64,000 nt of DNA from Azolla caroliniana (taxonomy: Eukaryota > Plantae > Polypodiophyta). Position 1 is the first letter of the stretch. Every line of letters starts with the position of its first letter. The stretch lies in NCBI GenBank assembly GCA_043228905.1, contig JBHGNT010000138.1, positions 1 to 64,000 of the forward strand, given 5' to 3'. The notes under the pieces are model-generated. The model worked only from the letters and a program-made list of their open reading frames with translations. It made no database searches and was not told where the DNA came from. Of the stretch, positions 16,574-43,053 are shown in pieces. The position numbers were made by a program, and so were the translations under genes.

Positions 16574-17171
16574 TGTCATGACGACATACATTTTGATTCG
16601 AGCTCAAGACGTCTTGGTCTATATGTTAGACCTTTAACCATTATACTAACATATATGATGTATAGTTATAATAAATGTATTATTAGTTATTACAAGAACC
16701 CTAAACTAATAATACATTTATTATAACTATACATCATATATGTTAGTATAATGGTTAAAGGTCTAACATATAGACCAAGACGTCTTGAGCTCGAATAGTG
16801 TTTTTTCTCTCTCCCTCTACCTTCTACTGTCATCTTATTTTTCTCTCTCCTATTCTCAAGTCATGACAGTTTGAACCGAATGAGTTGTGATGAATGAAAA
16901 GACACCTATTTATAGGTCCTTATGGAGTATTCTAGAATGTTCTAGAATATTTATGATATTTATGATATTTAATATAATCATGGAATATCCTAGAATGTTC
17001 TAGAATACTCTAGAATGTTCTAGAATACTCTAAATGTCTTGTAATAACTAATAATACATTGATTATAACTATACATCATATATGCTAGTATAAGGGTTAA
17101 AGGTCTAACATATAGACCAAGACGTCTTGAGCTCGAATCCTTGTAAGGCCAAAATGTATGTCGTCATGACA
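16574..17171. mobile_element. 598-bp foldback insertion made of chromovirus-type LTR pieces in inverted orientation
   Basis: 21-bp terminal inverted repeat TGTCATGACGACATACATTTT / AAAATGTATGTCGTCATGACA. Internal perfect 93-bp arms at 16596-16688 and 16704-16796. Flanked by ATGGC / ACAGC; removing it restores the host frame FHTRPPRRRD. Confidence 0.85.
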
Positions 17172-23365: not shown

Positions 23366-23912
23366 ACCTATATTAAATGTACTTAGGAGTGGAGAATCTA
23401 GAATATCCCACCTAAGTACAAGGTCCTGTCATGATATGGCAAGACTCGAATCCATGACTTTATGCTACATGGGTCGAGCTCTTACCATTAGACTATGAAT
23501 TGTAATTTGTAGGATATTATTTTCATTTATGCTTTATCATAGAAAATTGATGTATATTCCAGATCTCTCTGGAACATTCTAGAAGCTTCAGGATTATTCC
23601 TAAAAACACTATAAAAGGAGGCACAAGGCATTGTTTTGAACCAAATTGGTTCAACGCCAATCTTAAGCCTCGTAGCCGATTTGTACTTATCTTTTCATAT
23701 AATATAAGAGCTGCTGTCATCATCCTTCTCTCTCTCTCTTTCTCGCTATCTCTCTCTCTCTTCTCTTCTCACTTCCTCTCTCGGGAATCTTACGCAATCC
23801 CATCCTCTTAGTACTAATAGTACTGCTCTTCTTTAGTACTAATTCCATCTCTGCTTTAGTACTACTCCTGACAGTTTGAACCAATTTTTCCTTCTACCCT
23901 TTTCCCTATACT

Positions 23913-25056
23913 ATGGCTACTGTTAGCGCCCAAGAATATCAATCCGTTTTCTCCGAGCTACAGTGCTTAAAAGAAAAATTTGTTGCCTTGGAACAAGAAA
24001 ACCAACGGTTGATAGGGGATCTGCAACAAATCGCTCTAGAAAAGCAACAAACGCAACAACAACATGGGGAGTTAGCGTTACAGGTGCAACAACTCGAAGC
24101 GGCATTGCAACAACAAGGATCAAGTCCCCAAGGATTTCATAAAGAGCCGAAGATTGGACTTCCTGTGAAATTTGATGGAACGCGATCGCAATTCAAGGGA
24201 TTCCTTAATCAGGTACAATTAGTCCTCCAAATGCATCCTTCCCGATACCCCACTGATGCATCCCGAGTCGGCTTAATAGGCACATTGCTTAGCGGATCAG
24301 CCTTAGCATGGTTCGCTCCGCTCCTAGAAAAACAATCGCCCTTGCTTAATAACTTTGAAGATTTTATTAGTGAGTTCAAAGCCTGCTTTGGAGACATCGA
24401 CAACTTCAGGACGACGATCAACAAGATCCGGCGATTGTGTCAAGGCGATCGTCCAGCCTCTACCTACGTGGCGGATTTCCGCCTACTCGCTTCAGACATA
24501 CCCTGGGATGATCAAGCACTAATGGAGCAGTTTCGCTATGGCCTACGAAACGATGTCAAAGATCTACTTCTAACTTTTCCCGAAGAACCAAAGTCTCTTA
24601 CGGAGGCAATCAGTCGAGCGGTCCGATGTGACAACCGCCTTTCCGAACGGCGTTCAGAACGTCAATTACAGATACCACGCGCTAGGCCGGAGACCACTTA
24701 CGCCGCAGTCACAGCTAAACCGTTTGCACGAGACATACCTCAAGCAAATACTTCAACACCGATGGAGATCGATACCATCGTCGACGCGGCCCGTTATCGG
24801 AAGAAGAAAAGCAATGACGACGTGCAAATCGGTTATGTCTTTATTGCGGTGGACCAGGGCATATCACAATCAATTGTCCCCATAGGCCAAGAAGACAGGT
24901 AAATCAAATTGTAGCCTGTACTAAACCCGAGTCAATTCTTCCCTTAGGAGTGTCTGATAGTATTAATAGTACTAATAGAGTGTTTGATAGTATTCATAGT
25001 ACTAATAGCCCAAGTATCTCAAATAAATTTGAAATCCTTAGTCAATTAGATGAAGA
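23913..25056 (+). pseudogene. gag: Tcn1-like Gag (coiled coil, capsid, CCHC knuckle), frameshifted near 24780
   Basis: PKIGLPVKFDGTRSQFKGFLNQ, LLSGSALAWF and PMEIDT; the knuckle RLCLYCGGPGHITINCP lies in the shifted frame. Confidence 0.88.
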
Positions 25057-25065
25057 GTTAAACGA

Positions 25066-28000
25066 TTGAGTCCAGCCAAAATAGGAGCCATTTGGTTGGA
25101 CAACAACCCTAGATCTGTACAGCCCATTAGTGGTTCCATTCCTTCCAAGCAAGTTAACAATGTGTTCCTAGCCCAAGTCATTGTTAGTACTAAAAGTACT
25201 CCCCCAGTACCCGTCCTAGCACTTTTAGATTCCAGAGCTAATTCTTGTTTCATGGATCGAAATTTTGCCCAAGCTTCTCAGACATCCTTAAGAAAACTTC
25301 CTTGTCCCGCAGCTGTAGTAGTCATTGATGGTCGTCCCATTGCTTCCGGGAATATTGTAGAAGAATCAGAACCCATTCAAGTTGTCCTAGGTAGTTTTGT
25401 GTGTGCAATATCATTTAATATAATTAGTAGTCCAGAGCATCCCATTGTCCTAGGATTACCTTGGTTTGAATTACATAATCCAGCCATAGATTGGAGAACA
25501 AGAGAAGTTCGATATCGACCACCCCAAGAATCAACTCATCGAGTTTCGACCATTTCACTCCATCAACTACGGGAAGAAGGACCCAAGGAGGCAATGTTCC
25601 TATTTGCAATATCAGTACATCCTTCCAGCACTATTAAGAAGGACTCCTCAGTACAACTTCCAGCAAAATATCATCCTTATGCCGATGTATTTGACAAGGT
25701 AAAAGCCGGTACCCTTCCTCATCACCGTCCTTATGACTGTCCCATCGATTTACAACTAGGAACCGAGCCACCACGGGGACCAATTTACAACTTGTCACCC
25801 ACCGAGTTAGAAGTCCTTCAAGCCTACATAGAGGAGAACTTGGCAAGCGGGTTCATCCGTCATTCGAAATCTCCGGCTGGTGCACCCATCTTCTTTGTCA
25901 AGAAGAAAGATGGCTCACTTCGTCTTGTCGTTGATTACCGCGGATTGAATAAAGTCACTATCCGGAATAGGTATGCACTTCCTCTTATATCAAGTCTTTT
26001 AGAGCGAGTTAATGGTGCCAAGTTTTTTACTAAAATCGACCTACGAGGAGCGTATAACCTCGTGCGGATCCGACCGGGAGATGAATGGAAGACTGCCTTC
26101 CGCACGCGGTATGGGCATTTCGAGTATACTGTTATGCCGTTCGGCCTAACCAATGCACCCGCAGTCTTCCAACACATGGCAAATGATATATTCAGAGACC
26201 TCTTGGATATCTGTTTGATCATTTATCTGGATGATCTATTGATTTATTCGAAGACCCAGGAAGAGCACGATTCTCATGTACTATTAGTACTAAAGCGACT
26301 CCGCGAGAATGGTCTTTATGCCAAGCTAGAAAAATGTAGCTTTGACTGCAAGCAAGTGGAATTTCTAGGCTACGTCATCTCCTCAAAGGGCATCGCCATG
26401 GATCCAGCTAAAATCCAAACTGTACTAGAGTGGCAAATTCCACGGTCGGTACGAGATGTACAATGTTTTCTAGGTTTTGCTAACTTCTACCGTAAGTTTA
26501 TACAGGATTACTCGAAGATTATTTTACCTCTCACACAACTTACAAAGAAGGGCCAAGCATTTCTTTGGTCCATAGAAGCAGATATGGCTTTTCGGCATCT
26601 TAAGAAAGCCTTTACATCAACACCGATTCTAGCTCATGTGGATACAAGAAAACCATTCATCATGGAGGCCGATGCATCAGATTTCGCCCTCGGTAGCATC
26701 CTTTCTCAACCAGGAGATAAAGAAGAGTTGCATCCGGTGGCTTTCCATTCGCGCAAATTCGATGTCGAAGAAATCAACTACGAAATACATGACAAGGAGT
26801 TATTAGCCATCGTGGATTCATTTGTACAATGGCGGCATTTTTTAGAGGGCTCTCCACATCAGGTCATTGTCTTTAGCGATCATAAAAATCTTGCTTATTT
26901 TCAGAACGCTCGCGTACTAAATCGACGGCAAGCTCGGTGGGCGCAATTCCTCACGCGTTTCGACTTCAAAATCACATATCGACTGGGGAAGCAGCAAGGA
27001 AAAGCAGATGCACTATCACGACGTTCATATCTTACACCTCGTCCTGGTGATGCAACATTTGATAATCAAAAGCAAGTAATCTTGGGACCAACACGATTGC
27101 ACACGACGCGGATTTTTCACACCCCAATGGATTCACGGATTACCGATGACATACGTGCAACCTTGAAGACAGATAGTTTTGCTCAAGACATCCTGGCGCA
27201 CATTGATACTTCTCGGGCATCATGTTCTCGGTCTCAACAACCAGGTATTGACTACCGACAATTCAAATATCATGATGGTTTGTTATTCTTTAAAAAGCGC
27301 GTATATGTCCCCGATTGCTCTTGTCGCCTTCAAATTGTCCAGCATTGTCACGACACCCATACGGCGGGACATTTCGGTAGTACTAAGACGTTGGAGCTAG
27401 TGCAACGATCTTTTTGGTGGCCCCACATGCGCCGTTTTGTCGACGACTACGTTCGGACCTGTGATGCTTGCTGCCGCGCAAAGATGCCACGACACCATCC
27501 ATATGGCTTGTTGGAACCCTTACCGATTCCAAGTAAGCCGTGGTAGTCTATTTGTCTTGATTTTATCATAGATCTGCCGGTCTCGAAGGGGTTCGATGCT
27601 ATCCTAACCGTCGTCGATCGATATACGAAGATGGCACATTTTTTGCCGTGTACTAAAGCCATCACTAGCGAGGAAACTGCCGCCCTTGTTATGCGAGAGG
27701 TATTTCGGCATCATGGCCTCCCAGACAGTATCATCAGTGACCGAGGACCGCAATTTGTCTCCAATTTTTGGTAGCATCTCTTCAAGATGCTCAAGGTCTC
27801 CTGCAATCTCTCCTCCGGCTACCATCCTCAGACCAACGGGCAGGCGGAACGAACAAACCAAACGCTAGAGCAATATCTCCGGTGTTTCCTGAGTTATCAA
27901 CAGGACGATTGGGCCGAGATTCTCCACTTTGCGGAGTTTGCGTATAATAATGCTATTCACTCCTCGACTCGGGTCTCCCCATTTTTCGCTTATACCGGTT

Positions 28001-28671
28001 TCCATCCTCGTTGGTCGGTGATCGACACCCCGGAGCTACCTACCAACCCTTGTGCCGAGGATCATTTGGAGAGGCTACGCAAGATCCAGATGGATCTCTC
28101 TACTCACCTTCGTCATGCTCAACACACACAAAAGACTTATGCGGATTGTCATCGGATTCCCTCCTCTTTTGCCATCGGAGATCGAGTATGGCTCTTACGT
28201 CGTCACATCAAGACTACTCGACTGTGCGACAAGTTGGATTATCGACGACTCGGTCCCTTCCGTATTACGGGTAAGATTAATGATGTCACATTCCGCCTTG
28301 ATCTCCCTCCGCAGCTTCAGATACATCCGGTTTTCCATTGTTCTCTTCTTGAACCTTATAAAGCAAACACCATTCTCGATCGTGTGACACCACCCCCGCC
28401 CCCGCTAGAGTTGGACGCCGGCCCGGAGTATGAAGTTGCTGCCATCCTCGATTCCAAACTTGTTCGCAACAAACTTTATTACTTGGTCAATTGGCTCGGT
28501 TATAGTCCGAGCGAACGTACTTGGGAACCCGTCGAGCATGTTGCCAATGCACATGATCTTCTTGCTGATTTCCACCGAAAGTATCCGGACAAACCCGGTC
28601 CGCAATTAGCGCCGACTCGTTCCACTCGTCGTCATGATAGTGTCATGATATGGCAAGACTCGAACCCATGA
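25066..28671 (+). pseudogene. pol: Tcn1-like Pol: protease, RT, RNase H, integrase, chromodomain; in-frame stops at ~27544 and ~27772
   Basis: ALLDSRANSCF, YLDDLLIYS, EADASDFALG, HDTHTAGHFG, GYHPQTNGQAER, RLGPFRI, and chromodomain EYEVAAILDS...YLVNWLGYSPSERTWEP. Confidence 0.95.
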
Positions 28672-30089
28672 CCTTATGCTACATGGGTCGAGCTCTTACC
28701 ATTAGACTATGAATTGTAATTTGTAGGATATTATTTTCATTTATGCTTTATCATAGAAAATTGATGTATATTCCAGATCTCTCTGGAACATTCTAGAAGC
28801 TTCAGGATTATTCCTAAAAACACTATGAAAGGAGGCACAAGGCATTGTTTTGAACCAAATTGGTTCAACGCCAGTCTTAAGCCTCTTAGCCGATTTGTAC
28901 TTATCTTTTCACATAATATAAGAGCTGCTGTCATCATCCTTCTCTCTCTCTCTTTCTCGCTATCTCTCTCTCTCTTCTCTTCTCACTTCCTCTCTTGGGA
29001 ATCTTACGCAGTCCTGTCCTCTTAGTACTAATAGTACTGCTCTTCTTTAGTACTAATTCCATCTCTGCTTTAGTACTACTCCTGACAGGTCCTATTTAAG
29101 GCGTTATAGTCAACACTCCTAACTAGATTCTATCTAGGTAACTACAAAGTTACATGGTTGACTAAATAACTAAATTAAGTTGAACTTGATCTCTCAACAT
29201 GCCCCCTCAAGCTCAAGTGTGAGGTGTCCGACATCCGCTTTGGCTTTCGTCGTCTTCGTGTGCTTTCGTCCGGTCTTCGACTTTCTTTGTTGTGGCAATC
29301 TTGCTTACTCCCCCTCAAGCCGGTGATGAAAGCTTGTAGTGTGTGGGTGAAGGTCGACTACTTCCAACCCCATCGTGTGTTACGAGCCACTTTGGTGGAG
29401 CTCTTGGGATCTTGTTCGGCCGCTACCTTCATTGCGAAGGCATAGTGATGGGCCATTTACTAGTTGAAGCTAAGCCGGGCGACATGGTTCTTAGCTCTAG
29501 ATGGGCGTCGAATTTTTTCGCTCGCCGATGTGAGTGCCTTCTTTGCTCTAGGTGTTTGCATGATGGGTACACTGAACTCACTATCTAGTGAGGGAGCCGA
29601 CACATCCGAATCACTGTCGTCGGGGTGATCAACTTCGTATTCAGGCATCTTAACTCTGCCTTTGTTCAAGTTCTTACTTGGCCATGACATGCTTGGGTCG
29701 TGTGGCGGCTCTTGTGGCCCACTAGGCCTTGCTGTAATCGGACTTTCTTCGAACATGTGTTCGAAGAGATCTCCATCTTCTACCTCTTGTTCAATGGATT
29801 CCGGGTTGAGCGGAGTCAGAGTCGAAGTTGTCTCTAGTGCGTACCAGGATGCAGACTCGTCGAAGACTACGTCTTGACTTACCCGAACCGCTTGGGTAGA
29901 AGGGTTGTATCACTTGTATGCCTTCTTCTCGTACGAGTATCCTATGAGGATACATTTCTCCAACTTCGTGTTGGGCTTCTGTCGTTGTTCGTACGGGATG
30001 CGTACATTCTCAATGCTTCTGAACACCTTGAGGTGCGACAAGATCGGCTTTCTTCCGACAAGGAGCTCGTATGGAGTTATTCTTGGCTT

Positions 30090-40818: not shown

Positions 40819-43053
40819 AAGATCCACGCGTAGCACAAGTAGTCGTCGATGAAGGTGACGTAGAATCGGCATCCGCCGATCATTGGCATTTGAGCTGGTC
40901 TCCATACATTCGAGTGTATGATGTCGAGGAGGCCTTTGCTCGCGTGGCTCACCTTCGGGAATGGGAGTCGATGTTGTTTACCGAGTTGACGCGCTTCACA
41001 TACTCGGTTGACTTGAATGTTGGAATTCCGATGACGACGACCTTTGATTTGCGTAGCTCGGAGCCGTTGGAGGTTTATGTGGCCAATTCTCTTGTGCCAC
41101 AACTCGATGCTTGTCTCCGTTTTGAGACCTTTAGCGTACATTGCCGATTTCATCTTGTTCGAACGAGGATGAACATTCGACCATCTCTCGGCCCCTTAGC
41201 TATGAGTCGGCCATCTTTCTCGATGAAACAACCTTCGTTGTTGAAGCGGACTTGCATGCCTTGCTCCACGATTTGGCCGACCGAGACCAAATTCTTCATT
41301 ATCGTGGGCACGTGCAAGACATTCTTGATGCAAGTTTGCTCGCCTTCTTTCCCGAATGGGACATTGTCAATGTGCCGAATAGGATGTGTGGTGTCGTCAC
41401 CCATCTCTATGATGTCGGGTCGATTGGGTGTGTGCAAATCATTGAACCACTCTTCGTGGGATGTCATGTGATGTGAGGCACCGGAATCGACGAACCACAC
41501 ATATTCTGAGTTGGAGGTGCTTGTGGATTGGAGGCCATCATAGAGTTCGCTCTATGTCTCATTACGAATAGACCACCGTAGTCGTTGTATTCGGAGTTGT
41601 TGGCGTAGTTTGTGAGTTGTCGATTTGTCGAAGCCGACTCACTTCTCTTTTTCCAACACTCCTCTTTGCAGTGGCCGATTTTGCCGCAATAATTGCATGG
41701 TATGGGCCTCATTTGGCGACCTTGTTCGGCATGGAAGCTCCCCCTTCTTCTGAAGGTTCTTTGATGGCTTCCGTGAAGGTTTGAGTTCCCTTCATGCGAT
41801 GGGCCGAATTGGCCTCTTCTACTACCTCGACTTCGTCCTCAACTACCATCTAAATTCGAGAAGAACATTTGTCCTTCCGATGTCTTGGTTTTGGCTTGAA
41901 CGTGGTTCTCTTCAACCATTAGCATTAATTGAAGGTCGAAGAACGAAGGAGGATTTTCCCTCGCCAAGATTGCCGTCCTCAACGAGTCGAATCGTTGTGC
42001 AACGCCGCCCAAGCATACTTGAACCATCTCGTCTTCGTCGACGTTTATTTTGATGGAGCCAAGCGAGTTGCAAATGCTGTTGATCTTGGCAATGTAGTCC
42101 GAATGTTGTTAAACTCTTGTCGTAGTTGAAGCTTTTGGGCGGTCGTGTTGGCGGCGAACATTTTCTTTAAGTTCTCCCACGTCTCTTTCGGCGTCTTGGC
42201 GTCTCGAATGTGGCTAAGCATGTGGTCGTGGACACATGTTCCCAAGCAATACATGACTCGACTAACCGCTTGCTTCCATGTTGAGTAGTCGACGTTCTTT
42301 GCGTTCGATCGATTTTCTTGAGCGCCGTTGATGTAACTCCAATACCCTTGGCTGACAAGGTATTGGGTCATCTTGTAGTCCCAAGATGAATAATTGCTCT
42401 GGTCTAGCTTTTCACTAGGGGGCGAGCTACCCATTTGTGTGTTCATTTTGATGTAGTGTCTTTCGTTTTGCTTTTCTTCCTTCGATCATGTACTCGTGCT
42501 ACGTAGCGGCACTATGGTAGCGGATAGCTGGAATTTGTCATCGGTGTTTCGAACACACAATTATGAAGAGGCGGATGGGCTTAGTGGATATGCTAAACCA
42601 CATGCTCTAATACCATGTTAATAATTAGGTAATTAAACATGGGTTAATTAGTACCTAATTATGTGATTAGTTGATAAGCGGAAGATTACGTGATATGTGT
42701 GTGTATGTGTGTGAGAGGAAGAGAGAGAGAAGTACACTTATGAACAACACAAGATGGGGGATGATTAACTCTATATTAAATTAGCATTATCATCATCAAA
42801 TACAAAAATACCCACAATGAGGTATATATACATCTCATGTGCAAAGGTGCACATCTGTGAGTAGAATATAGGTACTAAGGTATAAGTCCTATATTAAATG
42901 TACTTAGGAGTGTAAGATCTAGAATATCCCCCTAAGTACAAGGTCCTATTTAAGGCGTTATAGTCAACACTCCTAACTAGATTCTATCTAGGTAACTACA
43001 AAGTTATATGGTTGACTAAATAACTAAACTAAGTTGAGGTTGATCTCTCAACA

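What the first reader, a model, noticed from the sequence alone, without database searches (positions are those of the whole stretch)
23610..23887. Tcn1-like chromovirus has a self-priming (tRNA-independent) primer site
Seen in sequence: after the 5' LTR (ends 23873) there is no TGG-type tRNA PBS, only GTTTGAACCAATTT. The 12-mer TTGAACCAATTT (23876-23887) is the exact reverse complement of AAATTGGTTCAA (23643-23654), which lies ~27 nt downstream of the LTR TATAAAA (23610), where the transcript should start. Established: fission-yeast Tf1 primes reverse transcription with the first 11 nt of its own mRNA annealed to such a PBS. Inference: this plant element self-primes, whereas every other PBS identified in this window is tRNA-Met type. 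The primer segment also sits in a DNA palindrome (TTGAACCAAATTGGTTCAA) straddling the putative start site.
Basis: partly seen in the sequence, partly recalled or inferred. Interest (0 to 1): 0.8.

Follow-up and report, generated by a model that had tools for sequence, protein, structure and literature searches.

The report
Self-priming plant chromovirus, already predicted kind
A jumping gene, probably from a moss or other non-seed plant, has no tRNA primer site; 12 bases after its left repeat match the predicted start of its own RNA and change in step with it across relatives, so it likely primes its own copying as yeast Tf1 does, which is already predicted in print for this group, and its repeats also carry conserved backwards tRNA-gene promoter boxes whose role is untested.

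Summary
Observation confirmed. The element (23427-29087, 447-bp LTRs, 5-bp TSD, Gag-RT-RH-INT-chromodomain) has no TGG after the 5' LTR; 23876-23887 is the exact complement of 23643-23654 (0 of 5000 shuffles reach 12). In relatives the two 12-mers covary (6 of 12 pairs change on both sides; 43 cells vs 13 shuffled), the TATA box sits 32-33 nt upstream in 40 of 45, and pairing stops at 12 nt in 41 of 45: Tf1-type self-priming is likely. It is not new: Neumann et al. 2019 predicted it for 83% of 1500 plant Tcn1 elements, and the scan noted it twice before in other genomes. The U3/R palindrome does not covary (perfect in 10 of 40). No TSS or cleavage was measured. Side finding: the U3 edge carries antisense tRNA-type A and B boxes at tRNA spacing in 28 of 31 LTRs, with the boxes conserved but the cloverleaf lost; my searches found this in print only for non-autonomous TRIMs (Helenus). 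This copy is broken (frameshift, stops, no polypurine tract).

The parts
23427..29087 (+). Full-length Ty3/gypsy chromovirus copy (5661 bp), 5-bp TSD GGTCC, inserted in sequence that matches another repeat at 42888-43053
23427..23873 (+). 5' LTR (447 bp)
23443..23495 (-). Antisense tRNA-like unit in U3 of the 5' LTR: A box 23485-23495, B box 23443-23452 (one mismatch in this copy)
23610..23616 (+). TATA box, at -33 from the predicted start; same spacing (-32/-33) in 40 of 45 anchored loci
23636..23654 (.). U3/R palindrome; perfect 7-bp stem in only 10 of 40 loci, no covariation
23643..23654 (+). Predicted 12-nt self-primer (predicted RNA 5' end)
23655..23662 (+). Conserved motif after the primer, able to pair with the LTR end plus the GT spacer (5 of 5 pairs in 22 of 30 distinct loci; 4 of 5 in this 5' LTR); invariant, so pairing is not shown by covariation
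23876..23887 (+). Self-priming PBS, 2 nt after the LTR
23913..24902 (+). gag (Retrotrans_gag, Ty3_capsid, DUF4939); a frameshift near 24780 separates it from the zinc knuckle
25054..28671 (+). pol in pieces: protease-like stretch, RT, RNase H, integrase, SH3, chromodomain; broken by stops/frameshift around 27546-27775
28616..28640 (+). Place of the polypurine tract: no purine tract in this copy, whereas relatives have one
28641..29087 (+). 3' LTR (447 bp)
28657..28709 (-). Antisense tRNA-like unit in U3 of the 3' LTR: A box 28699-28709, B box 28657-28666 (perfect match to the recalled consensus)

Best explanation
This is a Tf1/sushi-group (Tcn1-like) chromovirus whose family likely primes reverse transcription with the first 12 bases of its own RNA instead of a tRNA. 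Shown: the PBS has no TGG, is the exact complement of an LTR 12-mer, and the two sites change together across relatives. Inferred: Pol II starts at the A at 23643, 33 nt after the TATA box; the RNA 5' end folds back on the PBS, helped by a short inner helix between +14..+20 and the LTR end; the element's RT/RNase H would cut after base 12 (by analogy with Tf1) to free a 3' OH. Inferred: because the PBS is recopied from the retained primer each cycle, a change in the primer would be passed to the PBS, which would explain the tight covariation and the G:U intermediates seen in 3 close relatives. The U3/R palindrome is likely incidental or lineage-specific. This particular copy is broken.
For: Exact 12-nt complement, 0 of 5000 shuffles. 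Folding from 23643 pairs primer with PBS (z -2.65); probability above 0.5 in 34 of 36 loci. Of 45 loci with both sites, 30 pair 12 of 12 Watson-Crick and 35 with G:U; 8 different perfect primer/PBS sequences; 21 distinct pairs give 220 of 252 pairs vs 181 +/- 5.6 when swapped, 0 of 100000. On alignment A4 (29 sequences): 96.8% paired vs 84.0%, 6 of 12 pairs with two-sided change, 43 cells vs 13.1, 0 of 500; slid controls 7.5-65%. On a Gag tree of 40, joint changes at primer positions 2, 3, 4, 7, 8 are 4, 3, 3, 3, 3 against 7, 6, 5, 6, 5 if independent. TATA at -32/-33 in 40 of 45, C at -1 in 39, A at +1 in 42, pairing ends at 12 nt in 41. Domains and Tf1/sushi-type Gag neighbours. Published prediction for the clade (PMC6317226).
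Against: No TSS, cleavage or priming measurement; only contigs were available and they cannot show starts. 14 of 59 loci with a PBS had no primer anchor, 7 of them with over 700 nt upstream, unexplained (possibly collapsed or chimeric contigs). 10 of 45 anchored loci have at least one unpaired position; 3 of these look like false anchors. The last 4 primer bases were part of my anchor motif, so they are not independent. The third duplex of the Tf1 'pretzel' was not found (0 of 30 at p<0.05). Loci are metagenome contigs of a high-copy family and may join different copies. Novikova 2010 found no self-priming signal in SM-Tcn1. The host tRNA set could not be searched.
Confidence: 0.9

Rival explanations
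1. A host tRNA or tRNA fragment primes. TGAACC matches the acceptor end of the window's tRNA-Trp, and GGTTCAA resembles a T-loop.
For: A 7-nt complement to the tRNA-Trp gene at 3489-3563, at its 3' end; 6 nt of it lie in the mature tRNA.
Against: The CCA tail would face GTT (three mismatches); the PBS follows the LTR 12-mer through 8 sequence types, some lacking TGAACC.
Confidence: 0.04
2. The complementarity is chance or a DNA-level inverted repeat with no priming role.
For: AT-rich LTR; primer use not measured.
Against: 0 of 5000 shuffles; compensatory changes on several tree branches; fixed distance from TATA.
Confidence: 0.02
3. Self-priming plus a regulatory switch: the U3/R palindrome forms a hairpin that hides the primer in transcripts starting upstream and in the 3' LTR copy, so only correctly started RNAs can prime.
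For: Folding from 23620 replaces the primer:PBS helix by the hairpin (hairpin probability 0.98); hairpin wins in 12 of 36 loci; strong hairpin in the 3' LTR context.
Against: Perfect stem in only 10 of 40; where the primer changes the U3 arm does not follow; 77.9% paired vs 77.6% shuffled, 251 of 500; a variant in the left arm at 23637 is common in close family contigs.
Confidence: 0.12

Closest known systems
Plant Tcn1-clade chromoviruses (REXdb; Neumann et al. 2019, PMC6317226; searched passages and supplementary file MOESM5 read; files 1 and 3 too large to read)
   Same: Chromodomain, 5-bp TSD, length inside 5466-9444 bp, gag and pol in separate frames, PBS complementary to the LTR (self-priming predicted for 83% of 1500).
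   Different: Covariation, the 12-nt boundary and the antisense A/B boxes are not mentioned in the passages I read; per-element data in the unread supplements may cover this family.
Tf1/Tf2 (S. pombe), Tj1, Tosmo/Tcry (10.1101/2022.12.06.519325, PMC4600332, PMC5341516; searched passages only)
   Same: Self-primer at the RNA 5' end pairs with a PBS just after the LTR; an adjacent helix with the LTR end is possible.
   Different: Predicted primer is 12 nt (Tf1 11 nt, recalled); the third duplex of the three-duplex 'pretzel' was not found; plant host.
Helenus / TRIMp3 (Kojima 2024, PMC10886601; parts 1-4 of 6 read)
   Same: tRNA-derived sequence in LTRs with boxes A and B conserved and tRNA function lost; one family in Selaginella.
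   Different: Helenus are non-autonomous TRIMs under about 1.3 kb with tRNA-type PBS; here the unit is in autonomous chromoviruses with a TATA promoter and points against the element's transcription.
SM-Tcn1 and PpatensLTRs (Novikova et al. 2010, PMC2864245; section 6 and searched passages read)
   Same: Size, about 440-bp LTRs, T-rich leader, two ORFs, chromodomain.
   Different: That paper found no evidence of self-priming in SM-Tcn1.

Membership tests
Ty3/gypsy chromovirus | LTRs TG...CA with TSD; order Gag-PR-RT-RH-INT | tested here: met
Ty3/gypsy chromovirus | Chromodomain at the integrase C-terminus | tested here: met
   PF00385 E 9.9e-13
Tcn1 clade | RT-RH-INT phylogeny with reference Tcn1 elements | not testable with these tools
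   No REXdb or named Tcn1 references on hand; indirect only: a Gag homologue's nearest named Atlas clusters are PEG10/Rtl and fungal Tf2-like proteins
Tcn1 clade | Chromodomain with aromatic cage | tested here: met
   Y, W, Y at the cage positions by eye (cage positions recalled); 95% of Tcn1 per PMC6317226
Tcn1 clade | PBS complementary to the LTR over at least 10 bp, starting 0-5 bp after the LTR; 5-bp TSD; size range | tested here: met
   12 bp starting 2 nt after the LTR; 5661 bp
Tcn1 clade | Host is a moss or club-moss | tested here: inconclusive
   No genome held; organism names coded, leaf and plant metagenomes hold it
Tf1-type self-priming | Primer is the RNA 5' end | tested here: inconclusive
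   Inferred from TATA spacing, C/A initiator and 12-nt boundary; no raw RNA reads
Tf1-type self-priming | Primer:PBS complementarity kept by compensatory change | tested here: met
Tf1-type self-priming | Three-duplex 'pretzel' | tested here: inconclusive
   Inner helix possible in 22 of 30 but invariant; third duplex 0 of 30 with a simple contiguous-helix search
Tf1-type self-priming | RNase H-dependent cleavage after the primer | not testable with these tools
   Needs a biochemical assay
Helenus / TRIMp3 | Non-autonomous TRIM without coding capacity | tested here: not met
   Full gag-pol
Helenus / TRIMp3 | tRNA-derived A and B boxes conserved in the LTR | tested here: met
   (antisense orientation)

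The most novel reading that the evidence does not exclude
This autonomous plant chromovirus lineage has dropped tRNA priming yet keeps, under selection, a backwards tRNA-gene promoter (A box, variable-loop AGGTC, B box at tRNA spacing, cloverleaf lost) at the outer edge of U3, which binds TFIIIC/Pol III and acts as a built-in insulator or antisense promoter carried to thousands of sites.
Probability: 0.45. Interest if true: 0.6.

Novelty: new member of a known kind. Interest (0 to 1): 0.33.

Why it matters
Self-priming in plant Tcn1 elements is predicted in print from complementarity alone; the covariation here strengthens that prediction and pins a testable 12-nt primer and start site, but would not surprise a specialist. 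The side finding could matter more: if the conserved antisense A/B boxes bind TFIIIC or Pol III, a very high-copy plant retrotransposon would be spreading potential chromatin boundaries or antisense promoters, something my searches found described only for non-autonomous TRIMs.

Tried and rejected
Genome-wide copy analysis: no genome held. Viral contigs: no relatives. TSS from sequencing runs: no RNA holder listed; the 8 runs laid were contigs only and show no starts. Palindrome as conserved structure: no covariation. Third pretzel duplex: 0 of 30. The helix 23713-23719 with the LTR end seen in the window fold is not shared by most relatives. tRNA-Trp as primer: rejected, CCA cannot pair. The U3 unit as a real tRNA: no Rfam tRNA hit in 3 of 3 stretches; acceptor, anticodon and T stems no better than row swaps in 14 non-redundant units, D stem marginal (0.48 vs 0.38, p 0.032, one of several tests); ARAGORN at a lowered threshold called 11 of 22 with inconsistent anticodons and no control, not used. 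One search's stem test mixed in non-LTR units and was replaced. PDB search gave only Ty3 and more distant RTs. Cluster members carried no informative names. The primary Tf1 papers PMC1563812 and PMC1369541 were not held. Sequence look-up of the LTR in earlier findings: nothing; genome-scope look-up returned notes on a different family.

Full report
Anatomy. The window holds one full-length Ty3/gypsy element at 23427-29087: two 447-bp LTRs (TG...CA, 10 differences, 9 transitions), TSD GGTCC, gag, RT, RNase H, integrase, SH3 and chromodomain. It sits inside sequence matching another repeat at 42888-43053. The copy is broken: a frameshift near 24780 in gag, stops or a frameshift around 27546-27775 in pol, and no purine tract before the 3' LTR, where relatives have one. 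The family is very high-copy: thousands of contigs per run lie on the LTR in runs labelled with four organisms. No genome is held, so the host is inferred (non-seed plant) from the clade's published range.

Observation. After the LTR come GT and the 12-mer 23876-23887, the exact complement of 23643-23654; 0 of 5000 dinucleotide shuffles reach 12. There is no TGG. Other PBS-like sites I checked in the window are of the tRNA-iMet type. RNA folded from 23643 pairs the 5' end with the PBS; folded from 23620 it forms the U3/R hairpin instead.

Relatives. A Gag alignment (25 sequences) fetched 79 metagenome loci, the best 80 of 182 confirmed matches. I used 67 of the 79 whose match reached near the Gag start, plus the window; 59 of these 68 show the LTR/PBS junction. 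An anchor motif that includes only the last 4 primer bases located the LTR site in 45 of 59; 14 had none, half of them for lack of upstream DNA, the rest unexplained. Of the 45, 30 pair 12 of 12 by Watson-Crick and 35 with G:U, in 8 different perfect sequence types; 3 look like false anchors and were kept in these counts. Swapping partners among 21 distinct pairs gives 181 +/- 5.6 pairs against 220 observed (0 of 100000). The TATA box begins 32 or 33 nt upstream in 40 of 45, the base at -1 is C in 39, the first base is A in 42, and pairing stops at 12 nt in 41. On alignment A4 (29 of the 36 loci with both sites in one LTR; six near-duplicates and one long LTR left out) 96.8% of cells pair, 6 of 12 pairs change on both sides, 43 cells against 13.1 in shuffles, 0 of 500. 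Such shuffles ignore relatedness, so I mapped both sites on a Gag tree of 40: at positions 2, 3, 4, 7 and 8 joint changes number 4, 3, 3, 3, 3, against 7, 6, 5, 6, 5 if the sites changed on different branches. Position 5 is looser (PBS 6 changes, primer 2), including G:U states in L001, L003, L005. Contigs may join different copies.

Mechanism. Shown: complementarity, covariation, fixed TATA spacing. Inferred: start at 23643, fold-back, cleavage after base 12 by the element's RT/RNase H and priming, by analogy with Tf1/Tf2 as described in PMC5341516 and PMC4600332 (passages). A conserved motif at +13..+20 can pair with the LTR end (5 of 5 pairs in 22 of 30) but is invariant; the third duplex of the Tf1 'pretzel' (10.1101/2022.12.06.519325, passages) was not found (0 of 30). 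Recopying of the PBS from a retained primer would itself produce covariation (inference; primer retention in Tf1 known to me only from a reference title).

Palindrome. A perfect 7-bp stem exists in 10 of 40 loci; with 25 nt of U3 added the hairpin wins in 12 of 36 and the primer:PBS helix in 20 of 36. On A2 (20 hand-picked loci) pairing is 77.9% against 77.6% shuffled. It could hide the primer in upstream-started RNA or in the 3' LTR of this sub-family, but it is not a general feature.

Known status. PMC6317226 states that most plant Tcn1 elements lack tRNA PBSs and are predicted to self-prime; its supplementary table gives 83% of 1500; its criterion is met here. Its files 1 and 3 were too large to read and may list this family. 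PMC2864245 found no such signal in SM-Tcn1. Two earlier scan notes report the same layout in other genomes. Tcn1 membership by phylogeny could not be tested; domain content, aromatic cage, size, TSD and Gag neighbours fit.

Side finding. Reading the first 130 nt of U3 on the minus strand gives a tRNA-like A box and B box. In 28 of 31 distinct LTRs the pair is found with at most 2 mismatches (plus strand 2 of 31; shuffles 0.56 expected; 7 loci skipped for short flanks; four other LTRs of the window negative), 25 of the 28 at 37-38 nt, the spacing of the window's tRNA-Trp. The A-box core was defined after seeing the data; positions outside the search motif confirm it: T8 in 13 of 14 (36% in shuffles) and AGGTC at 44-48 within one mismatch in 13 of 14 (0.9%). 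Column identity is 0.75 (A core), 0.70 (variable loop to T stem) and 0.79 (B box) against 0.38 for the spacer and 0.41-0.45 for flanks (17 sequences). Against a canonical promoter: G10 and Y11 of the A box are not conserved, and a T4 terminator inside the LTR follows in only 6 of 14. Stems are not kept and Rfam finds no tRNA. Selection on TFIIIC/Pol III boxes is my preferred reading; alternatives are pairing of the genomic RNA with host tRNA loops (a tRNA-like sequence in HIV-1 U3 is recalled; one search showed only search listings) or slow decay of a captured tRNA or SINE head. In print I found tRNA-derived LTR boxes only for non-autonomous Helenus TRIMs (PMC10886601, parts 1-4 of 6); searches and a term search in PMC6317226 gave nothing for Tcn1 or other autonomous chromoviruses, but most subscription papers are not searchable. 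Earlier scan notes describe similar units in probably fungal elements, unchecked.

Verdict. The finding is real and well supported, but a new member of a kind already predicted in print. Interest 0.33, most of it from the covariation evidence and the U3 side finding.

Noticed in passing
window 23443-23495 and 28657-28709 (minus strand); L001, L013, L015-L017, L020, L024-L026, L029, L031, L033, L036, L040, L045, L060 and others: Antisense tRNA-like A box, AGGTC and B box at tRNA spacing at the outer edge of U3, conserved across the lineage while spacer and stems diverge.
   Followed up: yes
window 28616-28640: No polypurine tract before the 3' LTR; a short copy of the LTR start stands there. 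Relatives have a purine tract.
   Followed up: partly
window 23808-23866, 24948-25007, 25184, 26284: Repeated palindromic TAGTACTA motifs in U5 and between gag and pol; present in U5 only in the closer sub-family.
   Followed up: no
window 3489-3563 (-): tRNA-Trp(CCA) gene; its acceptor end matches 6 PBS bases but the CCA tail cannot pair.
   Followed up: yes
window 2790-3160: Tandem array of about 33-37-nt units containing TTGAACCAA, just downstream of the tRNA-Trp gene's strand; unrelated to the element as far as seen.
   Followed up: no
window 16595-17139: 93-nt perfect inverted repeat with a 15-nt gap (16596-16796) and a further 103-nt inverted arm at 17037-17139.
   Followed up: no
window 29088-56000: Several nested Copia-like copies with tRNA-iMet-type PBS (LTR pairs 33623/38823 and 50406/55611).
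   Followed up: partly
L057 (about 600-4000 and beyond): A cluster of many degenerate tRNA-like repeats on both strands, not part of the LTR.
   Followed up: no
L001, L003, L005: Primer has T where the PBS has G (G:U pair), between the C:G type (L007, L010) and the T:A type (window, L002): a possible intermediate of primer-to-PBS copying, or contig chimerism.
   Followed up: partly
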